Origin: an uncultured virus (IMG/VR IMGVR_UViG_2912893941_000001)
Lineage: Duplodnaviria; Heunggongvirae; Uroviricota; Caudoviricetes
Strand: one strand, 5' to 3'
IMG/VR virus record: IMGVR_UViG_2912893941_000001
Coordinates: 44,319 to 64,318 of that record
DNA length: 20,000 bases
The notes under the pieces were generated by a model. It saw nothing but the letters and a program-made list of their open reading frames with translations, searched no databases and was not told where the DNA came from. Each line of letters opens with the position of its first letter. Within the stretch, counting starts at the first letter, position 1. Positions 3,804 through 19,761 of this stretch are shown here, in pieces. A program made the translations under genes and the position numbers.

Positions 3804-4040
3804 ATGGCAATTACAGATGAACAGAAACGGAGATTAAATGAATCTATGCCAGTCGCCAACGATCTAAAGCTCGGTGACATCATTCAGGAGTTACAAGAAA
3901 GCGGTGGGACTGCCGGACCAAAAGGCGATCCCGGTCCGAAAGGCGACCCAGGACCAAAAGGAGCGGACGGGTTCGGTACCAAGGCGCAGTATGACGACAT
4001 CATCGCGCGGCTTAAAGCGTTAGAGGGAGCTGGCTCGTAA
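3804..4040 (+). CDS. Collagen-like capsid decoration/spike protein (SPP1 gp12-like)
   Basis: 78 aa with eight Gly-X-Y triplets (G35-G58) followed by TKAQYDDIIARLKALE. RBS AAAGGAGG; directly after the major capsid gene. Confidence 0.78.
   Translation: MAITDEQKRRLNESMPVANDLKLGDIIQELQESGGTAGPKGDPGPKGDPGPKGADGFGTKAQYDDIIARLKALEGAGS
3915..3968 (+). repeat. Three imperfect 18-bp tandem repeats encoding GPKGDP/GPKGDP/GPKGAD
   Basis: ggaccaaaaggcgatccc / ggtccgaaaggcgaccca / ggaccaaaaggagcggac. Confidence 0.85.
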
Positions 4041-6433: not shown

Positions 6434-6805
6434 ATGAACATTTTCAAAAAGAAACAGGAGACTGATTCGATCCAGCTCGGTAAGTATCCGGTCGAGGTTG
6501 CGAAGCTCACTCCGGCCAAGTGGAAACAACTTTTCGCAGCACTCGATAAAATTCCGTTTCTAGTTCTGGAAGTCTTTAGCGCGCCTAAAACTGATTTCTA
6601 CTCGTATTTAGTAAGCGCGATTGAAGTCGGTATGGATGAGCTCGTCGAAATTACGGCATTATTGAGCGGCGTAGATGCCGAGTACATCCGTGAAGAAGTC
6701 GGAACGGACGAAATTATCGAGTACATCACGCTCACTGTTAAAAATAACCGTCTCGATTCGCAAGCAAAAAACGTGAAGAGCCTTCTTCCGAAACTCGAAA
6801 AGTAG
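6434..6805 (+). CDS. Tail assembly chaperone (lambda gpG analogue)
   Basis: 123 aa between the major tail and tape measure genes. RBS AAAGGAG; slippery heptamer near the 3' end. Confidence 0.82.
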   Translation: MNIFKKKQETDSIQLGKYPVEVAKLTPAKWKQLFAALDKIPFLVLEVFSAPKTDFYSYLVSAIEVGMDELVEITALLSGVDAEYIREEVGTDEIIEYITLTVKNNRLDSQAKNVKSLLPKLEK

Positions 6806-6816
6806 ACGAAGAGGGC
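6766..6816 (+). other. Programmed -1 ribosomal frameshift site with a candidate downstream stem
   Basis: In-frame GCA AAA AAC gives A_AAA_AAC (6766-6772). A 9-bp stem GCCTTCTTC (6780-6788)/GAAGAGGGC (6808-6816) starts after a 7-nt spacer. Confidence 0.8.
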
Positions 6817-7137
6817 GATCCGTATACGATTGACGATTATCTGATCGAAGCGGCGATCAGTTTAGGTGTCACGCAGTATCAAATAGAAAACGAGTTTTAT
6901 ATGGTGGACATACCGAAATTTGTGCGTGCCAAGACGAAGCAAGGCGCGGTAAGGCGAATAGAAGACATTCGCGTACTTCTCGCGACGAATAGCCGGGCAA
7001 GTGAGGACGACGAGTATAAACAGCTCATGAATACGTTGATTCGGGCGGCTGGGCTTCGTCCGGAAGTGAAATTCGACCGTGAGAAATTCGAACAACTACG
7101 GGCTTTACAGGGGAATTTTCGGAAAGGAGGTAAATAG
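6772..7137 (+). CDS. Frameshifted C-terminal part of the tail assembly chaperone (gpT analogue); predicted fusion 6434..7137, 234 aa
   Basis: The -1 frame is open from 6748 to the TAG at 7135-7137 (REEPSSETRKVDEEGDPYTIDDYLIEAAISLGV...) and contains the listed ORF 6901..7137, whose ATG has no clear RBS. Confidence 0.78.
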   Translation, partial: REEPSSETRKVDEEGDPYTIDDYLIEAAISLGVTQYQIENEFYMVDIPKFVRAKTKQGAVRRIEDIRVLLATNSRASEDDEYKQLMNTLIRAAGLRPEVKFDREKFEQLRALQGNFRKGGK

Positions 7138-9939
7138 ATGGCCGGAACAACAGTCGGAGAAATCCGGGCGCGTCTCGTATTAGACATGGCGGACTGGTCC
7201 CGTCGATCTCAGCAAGCTCGAAGCGATATGGATCAAATGGGCCGTTCATCTGCGAATCTCTCGAAGCAAATGGGCCTCATCCAAAAGGCTTCGCTTGCGG
7301 TCGGTGGCGCAGTCGTAGCCGGTATCGGCGTTTCCGTCAAGAAAGCGGCTGACTTCGAGGAGGCCATGTCGCGAGTTAAAGCGATCAGCGGCGCGACCGG
7401 TCAGGACTTCGAAGATCTGAAGAACATCGCGGCTAAGATGGGAGCCGAAACAAAATATACCGCAGTCGAGGCGGCCGAGGGTCTTCAATACCTCGCAATG
7501 GCGGGCTTCAGCGTAAAAGCGCAAGTCGGATCGTTGCCGGCCGTGCTTAACTTGGCTGCGGCTTCCGGCGAAGGACTTGGACGTTCAGCGGATATCGTTT
7601 CGAACATCATGACCGGCTTCGGCATTAAAGCGGAAGACTCCGGGCACGCCGTTGACGTACTCGTAAAAGCGATGACTACGGCTAATACGGATCTGCCGCA
7701 ATTAGGCGATGCAATGAAGTTCGTGGCTCCTGTCGCGCACTCTCTCGGATATTCTATCGAAGATACTGCGACGGCCGTTGCGAAAATGTCAGACGCCGGT
7801 ATTCAGGGGTCGATGGCGGGTACGGCTCTTCGTGCGTCACTCTTGCACCTTACGAATCCGGTCGGCCAGTCGGCCAAGGCAATGAAAAAGTACGGAATCG
7901 AAGTAAAGGACGCGCACGGAAATCTAAAGCCGATACCGGAACTCGTCGGCCATATTTCGAAGCAGTTCGAGGGAATGACGTCAGCGCAGAAAACGGCCGC
8001 AGCGGCACAGCTCGTCGGAGTTGAAGCGGCTTCCGGATTCGTTACGCTCTTGGGCGTGGGGGAAAAGGGACTGCGCAACTACTCGAAGACGCTGAAGGAA
8101 GCCGGCGGGACAGCGGACAAAGTAGCGAAAACGCAGATGGATAACCTCAAAGGGTCATTCGAACAGTTTACGTCTGCGCTCGACGGCCTCGGAATTGCGA
8201 TCGGTAACGAGTTTTTACCTACTTTCCGAAAAATTGTCGATACCGGTACGAAGGTGGTCGAGTTCCTTAGCGAACTGAATCCGGGAATCATTACGACAGG
8301 CCTCGAAATGGCGGGTGCGGCCGCAGCGGTGGCGCTAGTTGCGTCTTCCATGATGAAACTCGGAATCGCAGTGCGCGGTTTGTTCGTTGCGATGGGTCCG
8401 GCCGGATGGGTGATCACCGGGCTCTCTTTATTAGCGGGAGCGCTTGTCGGGGTGAAAGCGGGATACGATCAGATGAACACCGTTAGTTTAGAGGCGGCCG
8501 AGTCGAAGCAGAAGGAAATAGATTCTATCAACAGCTTAACGAAAGAGTTCGATAAACTTCAAAATAAAACGAAGCTGACTGCCGATGAATTCGTTTACTA
8601 TCTCGATTTGAATGATCGAATTAAAACGGAGACGGATGCCAATTCCATTAAACGGATGAAGGAAGAACAGGAAGAACTGCGAAAAAAATCAGGTCTTACA
8701 AATGAGGAATTTAATCGCTACTTAGATTTAAACGATAAGGTTATCGCAAAAGCTCCGGACACTGCGGCCGCAATCAGCGAGCAAGGCAATGCCGCAGCAA
8801 AGAACACGGACGCATTAAAGCGTCTTAACAAAGAAAAAGCCGAGGAACTCCGGCTGGAGCTGGAAACCCAAAGGGCTAAAGCTGAGGCCAATATGTCTAA
8901 ATATATAGCCGAAGAAGCGCGATTAAAAGAAAAAGTTAATGCGTTGACGAGAGAGCGATCCGATTTAGAGCAGCAGGTATCTGATCAATTACAAGTTGTG
9001 GCAGCTAAAGAGAGCGAATTGGCGGCAGCTAAAGAGGCTAAAGACACAGCACGGGTGGCAATAGCTGAAAATGAGCTCAACTTAGAGCAGACAAAGTTAC
9101 AGAGATTGCGCGAGCAGTTTTCTACAAATATGGAAAACCTGAGCTCTAAGAATCAAGAGCTCCAAAAGACCCGTGAGAACATCAATCAGCTAGATGTCGT
9201 TAATCAGAAAATGATCGACCTTGAGCTCCGTCAAGTTGGATTAAACGCCAAAAAGGGCGAAGGCGTTAGAGTGATCGATAAGGAGATTGGACGCTTACAA
9301 GATGCGAAGGCGAACCTTAAAAATGTTACGAATGTTGCTGATCGTAAAACGGATGAGTACCGGAAGTCTGTTAAAGCAATTGATGACGAGATAGCAAACC
9401 TTCGTACAGCAAGAGGGCGGGTCGCGGATATTACGTCGGAAGCCCAAAGGATGAACGCTACTCTAAGTAAGGACATCACGAAACGAATCACGACAATTAC
9501 TTCGGATGTTTCTATGAAGACGGAGCGTGCCGTAAGTCGTGGAAAAGGGAACGAAGGTACTTACCACACCGGCGGCATCATCGGCCTCGGACAGATCAAT
9601 AAACTTCACATCGGCGGCCTCGCGTCTCAATTCGCTAACCCGATGAGCCACGAAGTCGATATCCGGGCCCTGCGTAACGAAATGGTGCTTACTGAAGCGC
9701 AACAGGCGAATCTTATGCGAATGATTGACGCAGGCCACACGACGGGCCTCGGAGGAGATTCCGGCTTATCTTCGGATATGCTGCGTGCGCTCAGTTCGAT
9801 TGAGCAGGTGATTAAGACGAAGGGCGGCGCTTCTATCGTGATGGATAGTGAAGTTGTTGGCCGTATTGTAGAGCCGCACATCAGTCGCATTCAGCAGGAC
9901 GGATATGATTTAGAACGGATGAGAGACGGGAGGTGGTAG
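7138..9939 (+). CDS. Tail tape measure protein (TP901 family)
   Basis: 933 aa with ADFEEAMSRVKAISGA and GIQGSMAGTALR motifs, a hydrophobic central stretch, a long coiled coil and C-terminal YHTGG. RBS AAAGGAGGT. Confidence 0.95.
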   Translation: MAGTTVGEIRARLVLDMADWSRRSQQARSDMDQMGRSSANLSKQMGLIQKASLAVGGAVVAGIGVSVKKAADFEEAMSRVKAISGATGQDFEDLKNIAAKMGAETKYTAVEAAEGLQYLAMAGFSVKAQVGSLPAVLNLAAASGEGLGRSADIVSNIMTGFGIKAEDSGHAVDVLVKAMTTANTDLPQLGDAMKFVAPVAHSLGYSIEDTATAVAKMSDAGIQGSMAGTALRASLLHLTNPVGQSAKAMKKYGIEVKDAHGNLKPIPELVGHISKQFEGMTSAQKTAAAAQLVGVEAASGFVTLLGVGEKGLRNYSKTLKEAGGTADKVAKTQMDNLKGSFEQFTSALDGLGIAIGNEFLPTFRKIVDTGTKVVEFLSELNPGIITTGLEMAGAAAAVALVASSMMKLGIAVRGLFVAMGPAGWVITGLSLLAGALVGVKAGYDQMNTVSLEAAESKQKEIDSINSLTKEFDKLQNKTKLTADEFVYYLDLNDRIKTETDANSIKRMKEEQEELRKKSGLTNEEFNRYLDLNDKVIAKAPDTAAAISEQGNAAAKNTDALKRLNKEKAEELRLELETQRAKAEANMSKYIAEEARLKEKVNALTRERSDLEQQVSDQLQVVAAKESELAAAKEAKDTARVAIAENELNLEQTKLQRLREQFSTNMENLSSKNQELQKTRENINQLDVVNQKMIDLELRQVGLNAKKGEGVRVIDKEIGRLQDAKANLKNVTNVADRKTDEYRKSVKAIDDEIANLRTARGRVADITSEAQRMNATLSKDITKRITTITSDVSMKTERAVSRGKGNEGTYHTGGIIGLGQINKLHIGGLASQFANPMSHEVDIRALRNEMVLTEAQQANLMRMIDAGHTTGLGGDSGLSSDMLRALSSIEQVIKTKGGASIVMDSEVVGRIVEPHISRIQQDGYDLERMRDGRW

Positions 9940-9942
9940 CGT

Positions 9943-11367
9943 TTGAGTAATACAGATTTTATAAAGAAAATCGCCCCGGATGCGCAGAAGATATTTGTAA
10001 ATTATAAAATCCTTGCAAGCCTTGTAATCGCGCAGGGATGTCTCGAAAGTGCGTACGGAACCAGCGGTCTTGCCGTTAATGGAAAGAACCTTTTCGGAGT
10101 CAAGGGCGAATATAACGGAAAATACGTCATCATGAAAACGTGGGAAGTAATCAACGGAAGGAACGTTCAGGTTGACGCCAAGTTCCGAAAGTACCCGACG
10201 TGGTATGAGTCGATGCAAGACCTTGCGAAGCTTTACGTAAACGGCGTCAGTTGGGACCCAAACCATTATAAGGCGGTCGTAGGTGAGAAGAATTACAAAA
10301 AAGCGACTGCTGCGCTGGTAGACGCCGGTTATGCAACGGACCCGTCTTACGCGTCAAAGCTTAACAGAATTATTGAAACGTACAACCTGACGAAGTATGA
10401 CACCGCCCCGTCTCCGTCGAATCCGTCCACTCCTTCTACGCCGGACACAAACAACCCGGCTCCGGTTGTCGTTGAAGAGCCGGAGGTATCTATCGACGTT
10501 TTTTCAAGCGTTTATACAACACCTCCATCCGGTGTCCCTATTACGGATAGCAACTTCCGGATACTTTACAAGGACGGCCGCATAATTGACATGGCTCGCG
10601 ATTTATCGGTCCTTGTAAGGAGCTTCAAAATTGCATCGCCCACTCCCGATATCGATTACGAAACGATTCCGGGAAGGGACGGCTTAGTTCGAGTAGGGAA
10701 AAACTTCGGAGCCCGAACGCTGACTGCCGAATGTCTCTTGCTCGGAGCGGATGATGTTGATTTTCATTTATTACAAGCGGAACTCTTTCACGCGCTTCAT
10801 CGCGAGGAGGAGTTCTTTTTAGTTTCGGAAGCGACGCCGAAAAAGCGATGGCGAGTCGAGTTAAGCGCATCTTTCACGCCTGACCGAATCGGCAGCTTCG
10901 GCGACTTTACGCTGACTTTCCAAAGTGCCTCGACTTATTGCGAATCAGTTGGCACAACGTTGGATGCATTTACTTTTGATGCGAACAAATGGCAGATAGG
11001 CGAAGGGCTGACGGATGATATCCCATCGTATAAACACAAGACGAAGACTTTCCGTATTTTCAATGCGGGAGCCGTCCGGCTAGATCCGAGATACATGCCT
11101 TTAAAAATTACGTATAAAGGCGCGTCTAGCAAATTGTCGATCAAAAATAGAACAACAGGCGATCTGTGGACGTTTTCCGGCACATCTGCCGCGAAGGAAG
11201 CGATTCAAATTTCCGGGGTTACTGCGAAAAAGGGGAACGTTAGCATCTTCGGGCAGACAAATTTCGGACTCATTACGTTAGAGCCCGGGTGGAATGACTT
11301 TGAGTTAAGCGGAACGAGCGGGGATTTTGAGGTCGCGTTTGATTTCAGATTCCACTATTACGCGTAG
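9943..11367 (+). CDS. Distal tail protein (Dit) with N-terminal GH73 glucosaminidase/muramidase domain
   Basis: aa 1-153 carry IAQGCLES (E35), NLFGVKG, FRKY and GYATDPSYASKL. A Pro/Ser/Thr linker spans aa ~154-200. The ~270-aa C-terminal part has ETIPGRDG, ITLEPGWNDF and FRFHY. TTG start with GGGAGGTG RBS; directly after the tape measure gene. Confidence 0.88.
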   Translation: MSNTDFIKKIAPDAQKIFVNYKILASLVIAQGCLESAYGTSGLAVNGKNLFGVKGEYNGKYVIMKTWEVINGRNVQVDAKFRKYPTWYESMQDLAKLYVNGVSWDPNHYKAVVGEKNYKKATAALVDAGYATDPSYASKLNRIIETYNLTKYDTAPSPSNPSTPSTPDTNNPAPVVVEEPEVSIDVFSSVYTTPPSGVPITDSNFRILYKDGRIIDMARDLSVLVRSFKIASPTPDIDYETIPGRDGLVRVGKNFGARTLTAECLLLGADDVDFHLLQAELFHALHREEEFFLVSEATPKKRWRVELSASFTPDRIGSFGDFTLTFQSASTYCESVGTTLDAFTFDANKWQIGEGLTDDIPSYKHKTKTFRIFNAGAVRLDPRYMPLKITYKGASSKLSIKNRTTGDLWTFSGTSAAKEAIQISGVTAKKGNVSIFGQTNFGLITLEPGWNDFELSGTSGDFEVAFDFRFHYYA

Positions 11368-11378
11368 GGAGGTGCACC

Positions 11379-12779
11379 ATGTCTAGTCTAATTGTAAAGA
11401 ATCTCGCTAATCAGGTCGAAGCTCTAACGGACTTCAGCGTGACGAAGAAAGATGAAATCGATAACGGTAGATCTTTAGACGTATCAGTTATACAGACGGA
11501 TCGGAACGCGCACTCCTTTCCACTGATTCAAAATGAAGGCTCTCTTTTTTATGAAGACGAGGAATTTGTCATCAGAAAGATGCGGTATGTTCCTATTAGT
11601 GGCAAGAGACTGAAGGTCGACATTACGGCCTTGCAACGTTCGTTTTCTGATCTCGGTGAGAATTACGTATATGAAACATCCGGGAAAAAGAAAAAACTTT
11701 ACATCGAAGACATGCTGGACATCGCATTGAAAGGTTCTGGGTATTCTTACGAGATTTTACCGGAAGGGCTAGGTGATTCGTTTGATGTAGAGGATTTTGG
11801 AAACGGCTACTCTCTCGGATTATTAAACGATATAAAGGAGAAATACTCGGCTGAATTTGAGTGCATTGGAAAGAAAGTCTATTTCGCGAAGGAGATAGCA
11901 CGAGATACAGACTACATCATCCGTGACCGTGTAAATGTAAAAGACCCCTCTCAGGAAATAGACACCTCTTCCATAAAAACGTACATTAAAGGATTCGGAA
12001 AGAAGGATGAAAAGACAGGAAAACATGCGGTGGAAGCCGAGTACACAAGTCCATTAGCCTCAGTCTATGGGATCAAGCATGCAAATCCCATTTTTGATGA
12101 CTCGTACACAGCAAAGGATGAGGGAAAGCTCGAAAAACGGTTAGAAAAAGAACTGACCGATAAAATTGAAATATCTATCAGCCTTACGTATATAGAGGTT
12201 AAACAATTAAACATGCAGGATATTCGCAAAGGCGATTATGTATGGTGCGTATTAGAGCCCTTTGATTTGAAGACGAAGCTGCGTGTAGTCAGTGTGGAGT
12301 CTTATTCAGATCCTAAAAAGTCTCCGGTTTTTACTTTCGGAAAGGTTCGGGCGAATATCAAAAAAACAACTGCTAAATTAGGGCGGGGACAAAGCTCCGT
12401 CTCTAAGCTTATCGATACGTCGACCGGAAAGGTGAAAGGCAGCGCCATAAGCGGAAACATAACTATCGGAAAAGACGCGATTTACGAAGACGGCTACGAT
12501 CCGACAAAGCTGACGATTCCTACGTACGGCCGGGCAAACGCAACAACGGACGGGCTTATGAGCTCGTCGGACTACGTGAAGCTGGCGAGTATCGTATTAG
12601 GGCCTGACGGTCAAGTTTCTGTCTCGCTGGCTACCGAAACAACGGACGGATTAATGAGCGCATCTGACTTCGCAAAGCTGAAGCGCATCAAGGTCGGTAC
12701 GGCTACGGTGGATATATCGACACTTTCGCAACAGCTCGAATCTATAAACAAGCGCCTGACCGCGCTGGAGAATAAATAA
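11379..12779 (+). CDS. Tail tip/hub protein (Tal; prophage tail endopeptidase-like family) with C-terminal fibre-like extension
   Basis: 466 aa with IDTSSIKTYIKGFGK, YTSPLASVYGIKHA and KGDYVW motifs, two GLMS repeats and a terminal coiled coil. Follows Dit; RBS GGGAGGTG. Confidence 0.82.
   Translation: MSSLIVKNLANQVEALTDFSVTKKDEIDNGRSLDVSVIQTDRNAHSFPLIQNEGSLFYEDEEFVIRKMRYVPISGKRLKVDITALQRSFSDLGENYVYETSGKKKKLYIEDMLDIALKGSGYSYEILPEGLGDSFDVEDFGNGYSLGLLNDIKEKYSAEFECIGKKVYFAKEIARDTDYIIRDRVNVKDPSQEIDTSSIKTYIKGFGKKDEKTGKHAVEAEYTSPLASVYGIKHANPIFDDSYTAKDEGKLEKRLEKELTDKIEISISLTYIEVKQLNMQDIRKGDYVWCVLEPFDLKTKLRVVSVESYSDPKKSPVFTFGKVRANIKKTTAKLGRGQSSVSKLIDTSTGKVKGSAISGNITIGKDAIYEDGYDPTKLTIPTYGRANATTDGLMSSSDYVKLASIVLGPDGQVSVSLATETTDGLMSASDFAKLKRIKVGTATVDISTLSQQLESINKRLTALENK
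12531..12689 (+). repeat. Two protein-level repeats (32-aa period) in the Tal C-terminus
   Basis: RANATTDGLMSSSDYVKLASI and LATETTDGLMSASDFAKLKRI. Confidence 0.8.
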
Positions 12780-12793
12780 CGAGGAGGAATACA

Positions 12794-15358
12794 ATGCCGA
12801 AATTTCCGTACAGAAAGGCCGGGGCAGCGTGGGACCGTGTTTTTCGTAACGACCACAACCAGAACCTCGATGACATTGCGGACGATATTAAAGGGTCATA
12901 TGCGGAACTGGCCGCACATAAGAACGCTAAAACCGCCCACACGTCGGATCAAATCGACCACGGCGGTTTTTCTTTGCGTAATTATATCGATGGCTTATAC
13001 AACCGCATAAAAAATCTCATTCTTAATGCCGACGGGACAAATGTAAAAGAAGTAGTGGACGCCCGTGTTAATGCTGATGGGGAAATTGCCCCACTGTTGA
13101 AAGAGCGTCTTGATAAGGAATATAACAAACTTCTACGTAAGATCACCAGAAACGTTAACGTAGACGACTACGGGGCCGACCCAACCGGAGAGACAGACAG
13201 CACAGAAGCATTCAAAAGAGCGATCGGAAACGGAAAGGTGCGGCTCAATCTATCAGCCGGAGAATACGTGATAAGGGGCGTAAAGCTGCCGTCATGGACA
13301 TATTTGATCGGCCAGGGCATGGGCGTCACCACGCTAAAACTGCACGAGGACACGCCGGCCAGTGAGTGGGTTGTCACAAATGCTGATCATGCGAAAGGCA
13401 ACCGGAATATCGTTGTGGAAGGTATGTCGCTTGACTGGAATCCTGATCGTCAGGGCGGAGTAGGCGCAACGGGAGGTGTACATTCAAGCTGTCTTCTTTT
13501 CGCACAAGTAAAGTTTGGTATTGCGCGCGGCGTTGAAGGCATTAATCCCGGCTTACATTGTTTCGATGTATCAGCGCCTTCTTATGACATCACAGCAAAA
13601 GATTACACGGCAACGGGGAGCAAATATATTTGGATCGACAAGTGTGTCGGTTCGGGGTATGGTGACGACGGCATTACGACCCATTACAGCGAGTATATTT
13701 TCATCACAAATAATGTGATGACAAACCCGCGCGGCACTGCCCACCGTAAAGGGGGAGCCAATTCAAACGGAATTGAAGTGGACGACGGCTCTAAGCATGT
13801 CTGGGTTATAGATAATTATACAGAGGGGAATGTGCGGGGCGTAGAAGTAAAAGCCCACAAGAAATGGCCGGCACCTTGTGACGTTCATATCCGCGGCCAC
13901 GAATCTTTTCGTGACGTTCGCTCATTTGATTTACGGCATATTGATCACCATCTTGTAAAAGACCCTTGGAGCGAGACGGCTCGTGATGTGACGTTAGTAG
14001 ATTGCACATCCCGGGAACCCGTCTATAATTCGCTTTATGAAGGATTAGCTCCGAAAGCCCTTGTCGTTTCAGCGTACCAGCGTGTTCAGATTATCGGATT
14101 CAAAGCCATAGGTGATCCAACATATGATTACAAAGACGGCTCGATCATTGCTTTCCAGTATAAGAGCAGGAAGATAACAGTAAACAACTTGCATATAACC
14201 GGGTTTAAAAAGGCTGATTGTGACATCTATATTACCGGCGGCGATCAGATGACTGACGATGTGTTTATTTCTGATTTTGTTATCCATGATTCCGCAAGAA
14301 CCGGCATCGCGATAGGGGGCGGTGTGTATAATGTCAACTTGTTAAATGGGCTTATGCATGTGGCAAGCGGAACGGCCGGCATTACATCCCCGAACACCCA
14401 GACCAATATTTTTCTTGTCAGAGCTTACGGCTATAAAGATGCGGCTGTCATTGCGGGGGAAAAGCATTCAGTCGTTCCGAATAACGTCAAGGGAGGCTTT
14501 CGAGCAGCTTCCGGCTCCGGTCATGCACTTACGAAGTACAGTGCGATTATTGCATGTACAGGACCAACGTATGCGAAGGGTGAGCGCAATTTGCTTGCAG
14601 GAAACGCCGGCGGCTCTTCCTCGGAAGGATCGCGCAACGGCGTCATGTTTTCATACGATTCTCATACAACAGGAGACGGGCCGTCCTCGGGTGTCATGTT
14701 CTCGAAGGCTACCAAGAATAGTAAATCTTACACATTGGTTTTAGGCCATGGAAACGGCAAAGCCTCGGAAGCCAACAAAAAAATTGAATTAAACGCAAAG
14801 AATGGAACAGTCAAGGCTACTGGCGCAATAGAAAGTGTATCGAATTTAAAAGACTTGGCGGAGTATTTTGAATCAGCTGACGGAGCAAAGATAGAGGCAT
14901 CTTATCTTGTAGCGTTAGAGGGGGACAAAATCCGAAAAGCGCAAGAAGGCGACAAGATACTCGGGGTCGTTTCTAAGACTGCCGGCGTTGTGCTTGGCGG
15001 AGCTGCCTTCTATTGGAATGATCGTTTTCTTCGTGATGAATTTGGCGGCATTATCTACCGGGAAGTATTTGACGGTGAGGACATCATTACGATTCCAGCT
15101 GAGAACCCGAACTATGATCCGGAAGCTGAGTACAAGCCACGAGAGGAACGAGACGAGTGGCATATTATTGGATTGATTGGTCAAGTGTTTGTGCGCGTTG
15201 ATGATACCGTTAACGTCGGTGACAGTGTTTCAGCAGTTGACGGCATCGCGACAAAGGCGGAAAGCGGCGGATACGGAACTGTGATGAGATTTGAATCCCC
15301 GTACGATGCGGAAAAAGGATACGGTGTGGCGCAAATGATGGTTACACCGCAGCACTAA
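12794..15358 (+). CDS. Tailspike / pre-neck appendage-like protein: beta-helix domain plus peptidase G2-type autocleaved chaperone (phi29 gp12-like)
   Basis: 854 aa. EVVDARV anchor; VNVDDYGADPTGETDSTEAFKRAI pectate-lyase-3-like start; GDDGITTH and NSNGIEVDDGS; DLAEYFES (aa 687-694); REERDEWHIIGLIGQVFVR. Confidence 0.9.
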   Translation: MPKFPYRKAGAAWDRVFRNDHNQNLDDIADDIKGSYAELAAHKNAKTAHTSDQIDHGGFSLRNYIDGLYNRIKNLILNADGTNVKEVVDARVNADGEIAPLLKERLDKEYNKLLRKITRNVNVDDYGADPTGETDSTEAFKRAIGNGKVRLNLSAGEYVIRGVKLPSWTYLIGQGMGVTTLKLHEDTPASEWVVTNADHAKGNRNIVVEGMSLDWNPDRQGGVGATGGVHSSCLLFAQVKFGIARGVEGINPGLHCFDVSAPSYDITAKDYTATGSKYIWIDKCVGSGYGDDGITTHYSEYIFITNNVMTNPRGTAHRKGGANSNGIEVDDGSKHVWVIDNYTEGNVRGVEVKAHKKWPAPCDVHIRGHESFRDVRSFDLRHIDHHLVKDPWSETARDVTLVDCTSREPVYNSLYEGLAPKALVVSAYQRVQIIGFKAIGDPTYDYKDGSIIAFQYKSRKITVNNLHITGFKKADCDIYITGGDQMTDDVFISDFVIHDSARTGIAIGGGVYNVNLLNGLMHVASGTAGITSPNTQTNIFLVRAYGYKDAAVIAGEKHSVVPNNVKGGFRAASGSGHALTKYSAIIACTGPTYAKGERNLLAGNAGGSSSEGSRNGVMFSYDSHTTGDGPSSGVMFSKATKNSKSYTLVLGHGNGKASEANKKIELNAKNGTVKATGAIESVSNLKDLAEYFESADGAKIEASYLVALEGDKIRKAQEGDKILGVVSKTAGVVLGGAAFYWNDRFLRDEFGGIIYREVFDGEDIITIPAENPNYDPEAEYKPREERDEWHIIGLIGQVFVRVDDTVNVGDSVSAVDGIATKAESGGYGTVMRFESPYDAEKGYGVAQMMVTPQH

Positions 15359-15374
15359 GGAGGGATAAGCGACG

Positions 15375-16652
15375 ATGTATAAAACGGGCAGCGTGCCGAT
15401 CAACATTAATACAAATCCAATCAATGGCCGGAGTACAAATATACAATTTATGACGCAAGACACGGGCAGCGCAAAGCTGTTTTTTTCTTTTACAAAGGAT
15501 GGTGTACCGTTGCCTCTGTCAGCCGTAGATGCAAAAATTGTCCTACTGTATGATGATGGATCGTTTTATAAAAAGAGCCTCACCATCACTGACAAGGTAA
15601 ACGGCACAGCGGAATATGTGTTGTCCAATGCAGAACTCAAGCATTACGGAACGGTTAAGGCGGAAATCAAACTATATTACACGAACGGCCAAGCGCTGGC
15701 GACTTCATTTTTTACTTTCTCTATCGCCAAAACGTTAGAGGATCAGAACATCGTTCCGACAGCTGATTATTACATTGATGATTTTGAAACGCTGAGAGAC
15801 GGGATAAACCACATCGTCGAAGAAATCAGTCAGACTGTCGAGGAATTACAGAAGAAATTTGCCGATCTGGAAGCTATTGAAACGAAAGAGGGCGCGCAGC
15901 AGAAGGCGGATGATGCAGAGGAAAAGGCCAGAGCTTATACGGATGAACATGCGAATGACGAAGAAAAGCACATTACAGCTGCCGAAAGAAAGGCGTGGAA
16001 TGCCAAGGAAACTCCCTCCGGCGCGCAAAAGAAAGTAGACGCCCATGCGAACGATCAAGAAAAGCATGTTTCTTCAGCAGATCGGAAGGCTTGGGACAGT
16101 AAAGAAACAGAAAGCGGGGCGCAAGAGAAGGTAAATACTCACGCCAATAATACGGACATTCATGTTACCAAACCTTTCAAAGATACATTAGAAGAATTAT
16201 CAAAGCTGTTCACAGCGGGTTTTAAAGATGAACTGGAAGAATTATTACGTCAGTTCACGGCCCATAATTACAACCAAGAACGACATATTTCTAAAGCTGA
16301 ACGGAAGACATGGAACGGAGCTGCCACCTATGCCAACATCATGCTGAAGAATGGAGCCGCCGCAGGGACGCGGACACCGATGTACGCAAAGTGGGGGGCG
16401 TTTTTAATCTTACGGGGGCATGTGAAAACAGACGCCGAAATTATATTCGGCTCCATCCCCGCGGAATACGCACCTGCTGGCGGTTCCGTTATAACAGTGC
16501 CGTTAAGTGGTACAGGCGGCACAGCCGATTTGATCATTTATGATAATGGGGATTTAAAAATAAAATACCCGGACCCGGCGGACTCAAGTAAGATGGGCGG
16601 AGGCTACTATCTGGATGTGGTCGTCGGCTTTCAGGAAGGAGGGACAGCATGA
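15375..16652 (+). CDS. BppU-family (DUF2479) baseplate/fibre protein with repeat shaft and putative receptor-binding head
   Basis: 425 aa. N-terminal FMTQDTGSAKLFFSFTKDG motif; H-x6-H repeats in the middle; C-terminal PMYAKWGAFLILRGHV...IPAEYAP head-like domain. Confidence 0.85.
   Translation: MYKTGSVPININTNPINGRSTNIQFMTQDTGSAKLFFSFTKDGVPLPLSAVDAKIVLLYDDGSFYKKSLTITDKVNGTAEYVLSNAELKHYGTVKAEIKLYYTNGQALATSFFTFSIAKTLEDQNIVPTADYYIDDFETLRDGINHIVEEISQTVEELQKKFADLEAIETKEGAQQKADDAEEKARAYTDEHANDEEKHITAAERKAWNAKETPSGAQKKVDAHANDQEKHVSSADRKAWDSKETESGAQEKVNTHANNTDIHVTKPFKDTLEELSKLFTAGFKDELEELLRQFTAHNYNQERHISKAERKTWNGAATYANIMLKNGAAAGTRTPMYAKWGAFLILRGHVKTDAEIIFGSIPAEYAPAGGSVITVPLSGTGGTADLIIYDNGDLKIKYPDPADSSKMGGGYYLDVVVGFQEGGTA
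15879..16320 (+). repeat. Intragenic repeats in the fibre shaft (96-bp/32-aa units plus a 45-bp/15-aa duplication)
   Basis: ETxxGAQxK units start at 15879, 16008 and 16104. FKDTLEELSKLFTAG (16176-16220) is followed by FKDELEELLRQFTAH (16221-16265). Confidence 0.85.
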
Positions 16653-17247: not shown

Positions 17248-17670
17248 TTGGAGGGAATATACGTGTGGATGAATTTTGAGAGCTTACAGATCGCAAGAGC
17301 ATATCTTTTTGGGGAGGTGAAATATCTTGATTTAATGCTGGTGCTGAACATCATTGACATCATTACCGGTGTGATAAAGGCATGGAAATTCAAGGAGCTT
17401 CGGAGCCGTAGCGCATGGTTCGGCTATGTGCGTAAGATGCTCAGTTTCCTTGTGGTTATTGTGGCGAATGCTATTGATACGATTATGGATCTGAACGGCG
17501 TCCTGACCTTTGCGACCGTTCTTTTTTATATTGCAAATGAAGGCCTTTCCATCACAGAGAATTTAGCGCAGATCGGCGTTAAAATTCCGGCCGTCATCAC
17601 TGACCGGCTTCACGTAATTGAAAGCGACAACGATCAAAAAACAGAAAAAGACGATCAGGCCGCAGGTTAA
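17248..17670 (+). CDS. Holin, TcdE/phi29 gp14-like family
   Basis: 140 aa with DIITGVIKAW, LRSRSAWFGYVRK and FYIANEGLSITENLAQIGV motifs, about three hydrophobic segments and a charged tail. RBS AAGGAGGTGA; an alternative GTG start lies at 17263. Confidence 0.92.
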   Translation: MEGIYVWMNFESLQIARAYLFGEVKYLDLMLVLNIIDIITGVIKAWKFKELRSRSAWFGYVRKMLSFLVVIVANAIDTIMDLNGVLTFATVLFYIANEGLSITENLAQIGVKIPAVITDRLHVIESDNDQKTEKDDQAAG

Positions 17671-17717: not shown

Positions 17718-18620
17718 ATGGTGAAAATCACTAAAGACTTTATTCCAGTGGGGCACAATAACAGACCGGGATATGCAATGGACCCGGCATACATCACCGT
17801 TCACAACACGGCGAACACGGCAAAAGGGGCAAGCGCAGCCATGCACGCCCGTTATGAGAAAAATCCAGAAACACCCACCAGCTGGCACTTTACAGTAGAC
17901 GAGAAAGAGATATATCAGCATCTGCCATTGAATGAAAACGGATGGCACGCGGGAGACGGAAACCGCGGAACCGGGAACAGGAAATCTATCGGCATTGAAA
18001 TCTGCGAGAATAGCGATGGAGATTTTGAGAAAGCCGTGGCGAATGCTCAATGGTTGATCAAAAAGCTCATGAAGGAGCAGGGGATTTCACTTGCAAACGT
18101 GGTACCTCATAAACATTGGTCAGGGAAACAATGCCCGCGCAAGCTGCTCGATCGATGGGACTCTTTTGAAGCTGGCATCAGCGGGGCATCGTCGTCTTCG
18201 CCAGAAACAAAGCCCGGGGCGACCTACACCGTTAAGAAAGGTGATACTTTATCCGAAATTGCACAGGGGACAGGCGTAAGTATGGCAAACCTCCAGAAAT
18301 GGAATAACATCAAAGACCCGAATAAAATTAAAGTGGGCCAAGTGCTGAAGCTCACGGGGGCATCCAGCTCTTCTAAGCCGTCATCTAGTGGCAAGAAGTA
18401 CGTTTACCTTCCGGCTTCTGCCGACTCATGGCGCATCTATTCGACTAACAAAGCGCCGGTTAAAGGGAATGAATGTGGATTCCTCCGTCCGAAGAAGTTC
18501 GGCGGCCTGAAGTACGAGGTTCTCGGAAATCCGCAGACCGACGTGTACACGATTAAGACGGATCAGTTCGGCAAGGTAAACGTTTATGCTGCGAAGTCCA
18601 CAGGCGCAACAGTAAAGTAA
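17718..18620 (+). CDS. Endolysin: N-acetylmuramoyl-L-alanine amidase (Amidase_2, XlyA/CwlA-like) with LysM and a C-terminal wall-binding domain
   Basis: 300 aa. Predicted Zn ligands H29 (HNT), H131 and C139, and E94 in SIGIEIC. LysM YTVKKGDTLSEIA...IKVGQVLKL; Ser-rich linkers on both sides. Confidence 0.94.
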   Translation: MVKITKDFIPVGHNNRPGYAMDPAYITVHNTANTAKGASAAMHARYEKNPETPTSWHFTVDEKEIYQHLPLNENGWHAGDGNRGTGNRKSIGIEICENSDGDFEKAVANAQWLIKKLMKEQGISLANVVPHKHWSGKQCPRKLLDRWDSFEAGISGASSSSPETKPGATYTVKKGDTLSEIAQGTGVSMANLQKWNNIKDPNKIKVGQVLKLTGASSSSKPSSSGKKYVYLPASADSWRIYSTNKAPVKGNECGFLRPKKFGGLKYEVLGNPQTDVYTIKTDQFGKVNVYAAKSTGATVK

Positions 18621-18640: not shown

Positions 18641-18898
18641 ATGGAAGAAGTATTAATTTTCGCGACTATCCTCGCGCCCATCTTAACGGCGCTCGTTCAA
18701 CTCGTTAAGAAGACGATTAAGCTGCCGACGAATATTGTGCCGGCTCTCAGTTTCGTCATCGGTATCGGGTTGGGCGCGATTGCCTATCCGTTTACTGACC
18801 TCGACTTGGTGCTGCGTTTGTGGGCCGGCGGCTTTGCGGGTCTAGCAGCGACGGGTCTTTTTGAAATCGGAACAAAGCGAGAGGGAACTACGAAATAG
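18641..18898 (+). CDS. Second holin, Listeria phage A118 Hol118-like family
   Basis: 85 aa with three hydrophobic segments and the LVQLVKKT and WAGGFAGLAATGLFE motifs. RBS AAAGGGAG. Confidence 0.88.
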   Translation: MEEVLIFATILAPILTALVQLVKKTIKLPTNIVPALSFVIGIGLGAIAYPFTDLDLVLRLWAGGFAGLAATGLFEIGTKREGTTK

Positions 18899-19025: not shown

Positions 19026-19391
19026 TTGGAGAAGATTACTGTTAAGGTGCTTATGTATTTGAGCGTCATTTGTTTAGTAGCCGGAATTATTGCGGGTTTT
19101 GTATTATACGATAAGGACGTAGCAGAAGATGCAAAAACGAGTAAAAAGGTAAGCGAAGAACTATACGATAATTCTGTCGCTCAAGCGCAATACAAAACGG
19201 ACAAAGCACTTGCGAACAGTATGCAGTCTTCCGTGTTCTTTAGCGTCTTGGCCGGCTTAGTATCCGGCGCTATTCTTTTCGGGCTCGCGATCATTATTCG
19301 AATCTTAGATGAAGCGAATAGTAGAGCGCATGAGTCCGCGAGTGATCTACGATTAATAAAAAACGATATTCGCGAACAAACTGCGAAATAA
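19026..19391 (+). CDS. Hypothetical two-TM membrane protein (moron-like accessory gene)
   Basis: 121 aa with hydrophobic segments at aa ~9-27 and ~70-92, a polar helical loop and a charged C-terminal tail. TTG start with strong RBS. Confidence 0.8.
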   Translation: MEKITVKVLMYLSVICLVAGIIAGFVLYDKDVAEDAKTSKKVSEELYDNSVAQAQYKTDKALANSMQSSVFFSVLAGLVSGAILFGLAIIIRILDEANSRAHESASDLRLIKNDIREQTAK

Positions 19392-19397
19392 TAAACA

Positions 19398-19428
19398 GCC
19401 CCGTCCTTAACCGGATGGGGCGTTTTTT
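19398..19428 (+). terminator. Intrinsic terminator at the convergent junction
   Basis: GCCCCGTCC-TTAACC-GGATGGGGC followed by GTTTTTT; overlaps the end of the YolD-like gene. Confidence 0.78.
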
Positions 19429-19742
19429 ACGTTTATGATATCCGCAAACCTCACGAAATTAGTATCGCCCTTGGCGTCCTTCACACGAAATTCCTTCCGT
19501 ATGTGATCCACGTAATGAACTGCACCGATTACTTCGCGTATGTATCCGTCGTCATAAAGCTCGAACGACAAATCTGCGCCTACTTCCATCGATTGCGCGA
19601 CCGTCACTTCCATATCCTCGATCTGCTGCGCGTCCAGTTGCGGCTTCTCTACTTTAAGCTTGGCCTCAGCCAATCGCTGAAACCCTTCGCGTAATTCCGG
19701 CAAGATAAAACTCGAAGCCCACAGTTTGTTATCGCTAGTCAT
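19407..19742 (-). CDS. YolD-like family protein
   Basis: 111 aa from the ATG at 19742; GGAGG at 19755-19751 lies 8 nt upstream, so this start is preferred to GTG 19751. Motifs NKLWASSFILPE, KPQLDAQQIE, GAVHYVD and FADII. Confidence 0.88.
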   Translation of the reverse strand: MTSDNKLWASSFILPELREGFQRLAEAKLKVEKPQLDAQQIEDMEVTVAQSMEVGADLSFELYDDGYIREVIGAVHYVDHIRKEFRVKDAKGDTNFVRFADIINVKNAPSG

Positions 19743-19761
19743 GCCGAACACCTCCGGCTTT

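What the first reader, a model, noticed from the sequence alone, without database searches (positions are those of the whole stretch)
9943..11367. Enzyme-armed Dit: GH73 peptidoglycan hydrolase fused to the N-terminus of the distal tail protein
Seen: one uninterrupted ORF with an intact-looking GH73 domain (E35 in AQGCLES, YATD at 130-133), a ~48-aa Pro/Ser/Thr linker and a full-size Dit-like domain. I see no RBS or start that would translate the Dit part separately, and no hydrolase motif in the tape measure or Tal. Known: Dit forms a hexameric ring, described 'evolved Dits' mostly carry internal carbohydrate-binding modules, and siphophage virion lysins usually sit on Tal or the tape measure. 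Inference: the virion displays six tethered wall-degrading enzymes around the baseplate, an entry architecture I do not recall being characterised.
Basis: partly seen in the sequence, partly recalled or inferred. Interest (0 to 1): 0.8.

Follow-up and report, generated by a model that had tools for sequence, protein, structure and literature searches.

The report
Wall-cutting enzyme on phage tail ring
In a group of Bacillus phages, a cell-wall-cutting enzyme is fused to the six-copy ring protein at the tail tip, whereas related phages carry the same enzyme on the neighbouring three-copy tip protein or lack it, giving a natural test of where and how many wall-cutting enzymes a phage needs to get in.

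Summary
Confirmed. Window 9943-11367 is one ORF in a 64-kb temperate Bacillus siphophage: GH73 (aa 1-153), a flexible linker and a classical Dit (aa ~198-474), placed between the tape measure and Tal genes. Within-clade dN/dS on GH73 is 0.02-0.03. It is not an artefact: the fusion is on 31 IMG/VR contigs (62-100% identity) and in the isolated phage KLEB27-1.

New here: the nearest GH73 relatives (up to 88%) are fused to the N-terminus of Tal in phi105-, phi18-2- and yong1-like phages. The module sits on Dit, on Tal, or is absent (5 contigs of a sister lineage); I never found it on both. Best reading: a movable virion glucosaminidase, tethered six-fold to the Dit ring, that loosens the wall during entry and is accessory rather than essential.

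Presence in virions, activity and role are inferred, not shown. Evolved Dits, N-terminal Dit appendages and virion lysins are known; my searches found no enzyme-bearing Dit described. Verdict: new variant of a known kind.

The parts
9929..9935 (+). Shine-Dalgarno site of the fused gene (overlaps the end of the tape-measure gene)
   Evidence: strong SD (-13.6 to -21.1 kcal/mol) in 32 of 32 fused loci
9943..11367 (+). GH73-linker-Dit fusion gene, 474 aa
9943..10401 (+). GH73 glucosaminidase domain (aa 1-153), AtlA/Auto type
   Evidence: PF01832 E 1e-33; 3fi7/7qfu by sequence; fold to 3fi7 rmsd 1.5 A; pLDDT 92-98
10045..10047 (+). E35, predicted general acid (= AtlA E212 / Auto E122)
   Evidence: alignment; roles from PMC9108991 passages; invariant in 28 of 28
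10144..10146 (+). E68 on the beta-hairpin, predicted general base (= AtlA E246 / Auto E156)
10330..10341 (+). YATD signature (aa 130-133)
10402..10533 (+). Pro/Ser/Thr-rich linker (aa 154-197); aa 179-187 resemble the linker/first-strand junction of GH73-Tal proteins
   Evidence: disordered; shuffle p 0.001 in this protein, 0.05-0.3 in five other fusions: suggestive only
10482..10494 (+). SD-like hexamer and in-frame ATC; possible but unconserved internal start
   Evidence: group A only, 4-nt spacing, non-canonical codon
10534..11367 (+). Classical Dit: ring-forming N-domain, side-fibre 'rod holder' loop, galectin-like C-domain; no internal insertion
   Evidence: plain sister Dits begin at the equivalent of aa ~197
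7138..9939 (+). Tape measure protein, no lytic domain detected
11379..12779 (+). Tal / baseplate hub without GH73 (relatives carry GH73 here)
12794..15358 (+). phi29 pre-neck-appendage-like beta-helix spike with autocleaving C-terminal domain (probable receptor-binding protein)
   Evidence: E 3e-121
15375..16652 (+). BppU_N-type upper-baseplate / side-fibre anchor protein
17718..18620 (+). Separate endolysin (Amidase_2 + LysM) between two holins, so GH73 is not the lysis enzyme

Best explanation
The gene encodes an enzyme-armed Dit. Its Dit part builds the hexameric ring between tail tube and Tal. Each subunit drags, on a ~44-residue flexible tether (about 4-6 nm typical reach, 15-17 nm at most), an active GH73 domain. 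This domain most likely cuts GlcNAc-beta-1,4-MurNAc bonds by an inverting E35/E68 mechanism. After the spike and side fibres attach the tail tip to the wall, up to six enzymes nick glycan strands locally and ease the tip and tape measure towards the membrane. The module is the same one that related phages carry on the N-terminus of trimeric Tal. It probably moved from Tal to Dit by recombination and is accessory (helpful on thick or cross-linked walls) rather than essential. SHOWN: single conserved ORF, both folds, intact and selected active site, three-state distribution. INFERRED: hexamer, outward-facing N-terminus, display on virions, activity, bond specificity, role in entry, direction of the move.
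For: Domains and folds: (top fold hits monocin FtbK, then 80alpha, SPP1, NF5, p2 and TP901-1 baseplate chains for the C-part; Auto and AtlA for the N-part). It is the genome's only Dit and sits in the TMP-Dit-Tal slot. All AtlA residues discussed for activity or binding (E212, F229, G230, K232, W245, E246, F259, Y310-D313, Y316; PMC9108991 passages) map to residues invariant in 28 of 28 fused genes. GH73 dN/dS is 0.021 in group A and 0.029 in group C, at or below the Dit domains (0.018-0.12). The fusion is in isolated phage KLEB27-1 gp17 (63%). Architecture: GH73 on Dit in 31 IMG/VR contigs, on Tal in 54 contigs plus phi105, phi18-2 and yong1, on both in 0; 3 versus 2 more in metagenomes. In the NF5 structure the Dit N-arm contacts the last tube ring and the peripheral RBP, so it is outside (PMC12917162 section 10). 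N-terminal CBMs on Dit are reported (PMC9128512). A dedicated endolysin and holins exist elsewhere in the window.
Against: No virion proteomics, no activity assay and no oligomer model are available. The Dit N-domain is only moderately confident in the model (pLDDT mostly 45-67). A sister lineage (5 of 5 contigs, B. licheniformis group by protein names) has neither fusion, and no Pfam hydrolase was found in the four tail proteins of L183 scanned, so the enzyme is not required by this tail type. The Dit N-terminus faces the tube side of the ring, further from the wall than Tal. Direction is unresolved: fused Dits form one group with only 76/71 support, and the GH73 tree's apparent mixing of Dit- and Tal-borne copies is not significant (p-AU 0.11).
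Confidence: 0.68

Rival explanations
1. The fusion is a production trick. The linker is cut by Bacillus proteases, or an internal start makes plain Dit, so mature virions carry few or no enzymes and the GH73 acts free, or rings are mixed.
For: The linker is long and disordered. An SD-like hexamer precedes in-frame ATC184 in group A. Tal processing giving mixed virions in lactococcal P335 phages is recalled from memory, from no call.
Against: No internal ATG/GTG/TTG with a conserved SD in 32 loci; the invariant M217 has no SD (-1.7 to -3.9 kcal/mol) and lies inside the Dit fold. No conserved cleavage motif appears across groups A-C. Linker length is held at about 40-47 aa and its dN/dS is 0.11-0.13.
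Confidence: 0.14
2. The GH73 domains stay on the virion but serve mainly as peptidoglycan-binding or 'walking' adhesins, like the CBMs of evolved Dits, aiding reversible adsorption or access to receptors rather than boring the entry path.
For: Evolved Dits aid first reversible binding (PMC9863714, PMC9128512). The peripheral, tube-side position suits this. HydH5 catalytic domains bind cells themselves (PMC3150257 abstract).
Against: Both catalytic glutamates and the hairpin lysine are invariant, which pure binding would not require. The same domain is used on Tal, the usual lysin site.
Confidence: 0.13
3. The enzyme acts at release: unassembled Dit or tails help the endolysin open the wall from inside or free progeny from wall debris.
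For: Distant GH73 relatives in phages are endolysin-like, with LysM, PG-binding, amidase or NlpC/P60 partners in 8 of 9 scanned.
Against: The phage has its own Amidase_2-LysM endolysin and two holins. The close GH73 relatives are always tied to a tail-tip protein.
Confidence: 0.04
4. Assembly or annotation artefact, or a recent neutral read-through.
For: None found.
Against: 31 IMG/VR contigs, an isolated phage and 7 protein clusters; single contigs span the whole gene in two runs (one may be this DNA's source); synonymous sites are saturated between groups with the frame intact.
Confidence: 0.01

Closest known systems
Evolved Dits (evoDit) of Lactobacillus J-1, lactococcal 936, streptococcal cos/pac and B. 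cereus Deep-Purple phages
   Same: An extra functional module carried six-fold on the Dit ring at the baseplate periphery. N-terminal placement is reported for phBC6A51 and vB_BtS_BMBtp2 (PMC9128512 passages).
   Different: Described modules are carbohydrate-binding, mostly inserted in the galectin domain (PMC7291167 passages). Here the module is a catalytic GH73 on a flexible N-terminal tether, and the Dit has no internal insertion.
GH73-Tal of Bacillus phages phi105 (ORF39/gp18, 'putative cell wall amidase'), phi18-2, 268TH002/007 and yong1
   Same: The same N-terminal GH73 plus Pro-rich linker, 58-88% identical, one gene downstream in the same tail module.
   Different: Fused to trimeric Tal (3 copies) with a plain Dit. 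Database-annotated; I found no functional study of it.
Tail-associated lysins on Tal or TMP (Tuc2009/TP901-1 Tal, NF5 gp17, SPbeta CwlP, enterococcal TMP-LT)
   Same: Virion enzymes that degrade peptidoglycan locally for injection (PMC5380687, PMC9863714, PMC10194240, PMC12917162).
   Different: They sit on the tail axis (on Tal or inside the tube), not on the peripheral Dit ring.
Staphylococcal virion hydrolase HydH5 (CHAP + LYZ2)
   Same: Virion-associated muralytic protein of a Gram-positive siphophage (PMC3150257 abstract). That LYZ2 is a GH73-type domain is recalled, from no call.
   Different: A stand-alone protein, not fused to a structural ring.
GH73 autolysins AtlA (E. faecalis) and Auto (L. 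monocytogenes)
   Same: Fold and two-glutamate active site (42-47% identity).
   Different: Cellular enzymes with LysM/GW binding domains. Here the virion replaces the binding domains.
Monocin FtbK (PDB 9j1k)
   Same: Closest solved Dit (E 1e-31), hexameric, with a rod-holder loop that anchors BppU-like side fibres (PMC11830787 section 7). The window also encodes a BppU_N protein.
   Different: 272 aa, no N-terminal enzyme.

Membership tests
Siphophage Dit | Gene between tape measure and Tal | tested here: met
Siphophage Dit | Tube-fold N-domain plus galectin-like C-domain | tested here: met
   PHROG 33 aa 196-473; Foldseek to 9j1k E 2e-18, 6v8i 3e-11, 2x8k 5e-9; N-domain confidence moderate and whole-protein rmsd high
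Siphophage Dit | Hexameric ring in the virion | not testable with these tools
   no complex model available; inferred from monocin and NF5
GH73 (AtlA/Auto subgroup) | PF01832 domain and fold | tested here: met
   116.8 bits against cut-off 30.2; rmsd 1.5 A to 3fi7
GH73 (AtlA/Auto subgroup) | Acid Glu, hairpin base Glu, hairpin Lys, YATD motif | tested here: met
   E35, E68, K54, Y130-D133, Y136, F81 invariant in 28 of 28
GH73 (AtlA/Auto subgroup) | Measured glucosaminidase activity and bond specificity | not testable with these tools
   needs assay; best NCBIfam hit is labelled a muramoylhydrolase but scores far below cut-off
Evolved Dit (as defined in print) | Extra module on Dit | tested here: met
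Evolved Dit (as defined in print) | Module is a carbohydrate-binding module, usually inserted internally | tested here: not met
   module is catalytic and N-terminal; Dit part is 277 aa like plain Dits
Virion-associated lysin | Muralytic domain on a tail-module gene, distinct from the endolysin | tested here: met
Virion-associated lysin | Present and active in purified particles | not testable with these tools
   no proteomics or zymogram data found (one search found no primary paper on KLEB27-1)

The most novel reading that the evidence does not exclude
A catalytically armed Dit. Six tethered glucosaminidases ring the baseplate and dig at the wall from the periphery. The GH73-linker cassette is a plug-in that Bacillus phages have moved between the three-fold Tal and the six-fold Dit, or dropped, tuning enzyme number and position to the host wall. 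This would extend 'evolved Dits' from binding to catalysis and show the Dit N-terminus is a natural display site for whole enzymes.
Probability: 0.62. Interest if true: 0.68.

Novelty: new variant of a known kind. Interest (0 to 1): 0.55.

Why it matters
How siphophages cross the thick Gram-positive wall, and whether the place and copy number of a virion lysin matter, is open. This phage group offers three natural states of one tail (enzyme on Dit, on Tal, absent) in tractable, harmless Bacillus hosts, with isolated phages for two states (KLEB27-1; phi105 and phi18-2). It adds a catalytic class to evolved Dits, corrects database labels ('glucosaminidase domain-containing protein', 'phage tail family protein') and points to a six-copy display site on phage tails.

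Tried and rejected
- First AlphaFold run on a 6-sequence alignment: unusable (pLDDT 45); repeated with 140 rows.
- No hexamer or complex model could be obtained, so ring assembly with the tether is untested.
- Search for other long or enzyme-bearing Dits among proteins of 493-2000 aa: 1 hit and 0 hits. Both searches were crowded and missed the 300-490 aa range, so they are weak evidence of absence.
- GTDB genome scan: only two short MAG contigs.
- Repeated exchange of GH73 between Dit- and Tal-borne copies: suggested by trees (3 changes) but single origin not rejected (p-AU 0.11); not claimed.
- Vestige of Tal's first strand in the linker: motif chosen after seeing it; p 0.001 in 1 of 6 fusions, 0.05-0.30 in the other 5; kept as a hint only.
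- Internal start at ATC184 or M217: rejected as unconserved.
- RNA runs: only patchy contigs from related strains, which cannot show expression.
- Earlier scan notes: nothing.
- A linker profile-profile comparison timed out and was dropped.

Full report
Context. The window is the last 20 kb of a single 64,318-bp contig that begins with an integrase-like ORF (my reading of its translation). It encodes a siphophage head-tail and lysis module. Members of the window protein's cluster are named from B. velezensis and B. amyloliquefaciens. The closest isolated phages are the ~65-kb Bacillus phages KLEB27-1, phi18-2 and 268TH002/007; the last two are described as temperate (PMC9476937, first part of the whole text).

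Observation. 9943-11367 is one 474-codon frame with a TTG start and a strong SD at 9929-9935. Pfam finds Glucosaminidase at aa 12-149 and Sipho_tail at aa 232-326, and PHROG 33 (Dit) covers aa 196-473. The best solved relatives are Auto (3fi7, E 2e-33) and monocin Dit FtbK (9j1k, E 1e-31). An AlphaFold model on a 140-row alignment gives a confident GH73 (pLDDT 92-98), a disordered stretch at aa 162-204, a moderately confident Dit N-domain and a confident C-domain. Foldseek returns FtbK first, then Auto and AtlA, and 80alpha, SPP1, Douge, NF5, p2 and TP901-1 baseplate chains. It is the only Dit and the only GH73 in the genome. No Pfam lytic domain was found on TMP or Tal, and a separate Amidase_2-LysM endolysin lies between two holins.

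Not an artefact. Seven 90%-clusters carry both domains (63-100% identity, 209 member sequences; one of them is C-terminally aberrant). KLEB27-1 gp17 is a full-length fusion at 63%. Counting distinct contigs (table), 31 IMG/VR contigs hold the fusion: 14 at 97-100% (group A; one may be this same prophage), 2 at 69% (B) and 15 at 62-64% (C). Three metagenome contigs add to these. By protein names, A is velezensis/amyloliquefaciens, B mostly B. subtilis and C mostly the pumilus group. Single contigs span the whole gene in two sequencing runs (one may be the source). Among the 150 best hits of a profile search of 1.84 billion representatives, only one (P0004) covers both domains, so the fusion appears confined to this Bacillus lineage.

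The enzyme looks alive. Aligned to AtlA (PMC9108991 passages), E35 is the acid (E212), E68 the hairpin base (E246), K54 the hairpin lysine (K232), and F51, G52, W67, F81, Y130-D133 and Y136 the binding residues. All 12 positions are invariant in the 28 fused genes aligned (28 of the 32 complete loci then held; four near-duplicates left out). dN/dS on GH73 is 0.021 within A and 0.029 within C, against 0.018-0.12 for the Dit domains and 0.11-0.13 for the linker. AtlA is an inverting endo-glucosaminidase; the same chemistry is inferred here, not measured.

One product or two? All 32 loci have a strong SD at the GH73 start. An SD-like hexamer at 10482-10487 precedes an in-frame ATC in group A only (-10.9 kcal/mol in 9 of 14, weaker in 5), with 4-nt spacing. 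It is absent at that place from B and C. The invariant M217 has no SD and lies within the Dit fold. A conserved separate Dit start is therefore unlikely. Proteolysis of the linker cannot be excluded from sequence.

The main new result. The nearest GH73 domains (up to 88% identity) are N-terminal fusions to Tal. In phi105, phi18-2 and yong1 and in 54 IMG/VR contigs the order is plain Dit, then GH73-linker-Tal (five of these contigs have a split Dit or Tal). In the fused phages the adjacent Tal lacks GH73 in 30 of 30 contigs where it is visible. No locus has both. The other 30 GH73 loci retrieved were distant and had no Dit or Tal hit; 8 of 9 scanned have endolysin-like partner domains. One search kept 80 of 110 matches. 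A third state exists: 5 of 5 contigs found with the sister plain Dit P0011 (licheniformis group) have the same kind of tape measure, Dit and Tal but no GH73. GH73-based queries undercount this state.

Direction. In the Tal tree the fused phages form one starred group (96, quick method). In the careful Dit tree they group with the licheniformis plain Dits (96/94) and alone at only 76/71; all outgroup Dits are plain. In GH73 trees the Dit-borne copies lie among Tal-borne ones in three places, but one origin is not rejected (p-AU 0.11). Linker aa 179-187 resembles the linker/first-strand junction of GH73-Tal (p 0.001 here, weak in five other fusions). A single Tal-to-Dit move is the most economical reading, perhaps 65% likely. 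Whether the licheniformis lineage lost the module or never had it is open. Trees used subsets of rows, listed in the scripts.

How it probably works. Homologous Dits form a hexamer under the last tube ring with galectin domains radiating out, and the inter-domain loop anchors BppU-like side fibres (PMC11830787 section 7). That loop is matched here and a BppU_N gene is present. In NF5 the Dit N-arm touches the last tube ring and the peripheral RBP (PMC12917162 section 10), so an N-terminal tether would leave on the outside. A 43-48-residue chain reaches about 4-6 nm on average and 15-17 nm at most (polymer estimate). After binding through the phi29-appendage-like spike (E 3e-121; its teichoic-acid activity in phi29 is recalled, from no call), up to six enzymes could nick glycan strands around the tip. 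Tal lysins are reported to matter for infecting highly cross-linked stationary-phase walls (PMC9863714 section 20), which fits an accessory role and the existence of the enzyme-less lineage. Rivals are shedding of the enzyme (0.14), an adhesin-like role (0.13), a release role (0.04) and artefact (0.01).

What is known. Evolved Dits carry CBMs, mostly inserted in the galectin domain (PMC7291167 and PMC9863714 passages). N-terminal CBMs are noted for two B. cereus-group phages (PMC9128512 passages), and an unrelated 1571-aa protein ends in a Dit-like domain behind CBM and Fn3 repeats. Virion lysins are listed at tail tips, baseplate spikes, necks and heads (PMC5380687 passages and section 13). 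The passages seen of a survey of 506 enterococcal phage genomes placed lysins on Tal, TMP or other tail proteins and none on Dit (PMC10194240). HydH5 is a stand-alone virion hydrolase (PMC3150257 abstract). Searches (listings and abstract openings, plus the papers named) showed no description of an enzyme-bearing Dit or of KLEB27-1 gp17. The library lacks most subscription papers, including the main evolved-Dit surveys cited in those reference lists. I read no supplements, where such a fusion might be tabulated. The GenBank record notes only Sipho_tail for gp17.

Verdict. Real, conserved and selected. It works like a virion-associated lysin and is carried like an evolved-Dit module, but fails the CBM criterion of evolved Dits. 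New variant of a known kind; interest 0.55, mainly because three natural states make the question of lysin position and copy number directly testable.

Noticed in passing
window 12794-15358: phi29 pre-neck-appendage homologue (E 3e-121) encoded in the tail-tip receptor-binding slot of a siphophage. The slot holds a different beta-helix protein in KLEB27-1 and an unrelated 682-aa protein with no Pfam hit in L183.
   Followed up: partly
L003 5810-7513 (phi105), L002 6823-8700 (phi18-2): GH73 on the N-terminus of Tal is itself unusual (Tal lysins are mostly C-terminal) and widespread in Bacillus prophages; no functional study surfaced in my searches.
   Followed up: partly
L183-L187: Sister prophages with no GH73; no Pfam lytic domain in the four tail proteins of L183 scanned.
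   Followed up: partly
L004 478-4965 (yong1): Tape measure carries an SLT domain in addition to the GH73-Tal, giving two virion lysins.
   Followed up: no
window 11379-12779, C-terminal part: Tal ends in two short DGLMS-containing repeats and a helical tail, shared with phi18-2-type Tals.
   Followed up: no
window 17248-17670 and 18641-18898: Two holins of different families flank the Amidase_2-LysM endolysin.
   Followed up: no
window 3804-4040: 78-aa protein with a short collagen-like repeat just after the major capsid gene.
   Followed up: no
window 19026-19391 and 19407-19751 (-): Unassigned membrane-protein-like ORF and a YolD-like gene after the lysis cassette.
   Followed up: no
window 6434-7137: Two tail-chaperone-like ORFs before the tape measure; a programmed frameshift was not checked.
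   Followed up: no
P0268 and P0201: A 1571-aa protein with CBM and Fn3 arrays ahead of a Dit-like C-terminus (one contig), and a 468-aa Dit with a large insertion that has no Pfam hit.
   Followed up: partly
L019, L020: Short contigs 93-100% identical to this Dit inside MAGs labelled as unrelated bacteria; probably binning contamination.
   Followed up: no
L008, L017, L024: Some group A copies have a split tape measure or shortened Tal while the fusion gene shows no internal stop; may be decay or sequencing error.
   Followed up: no
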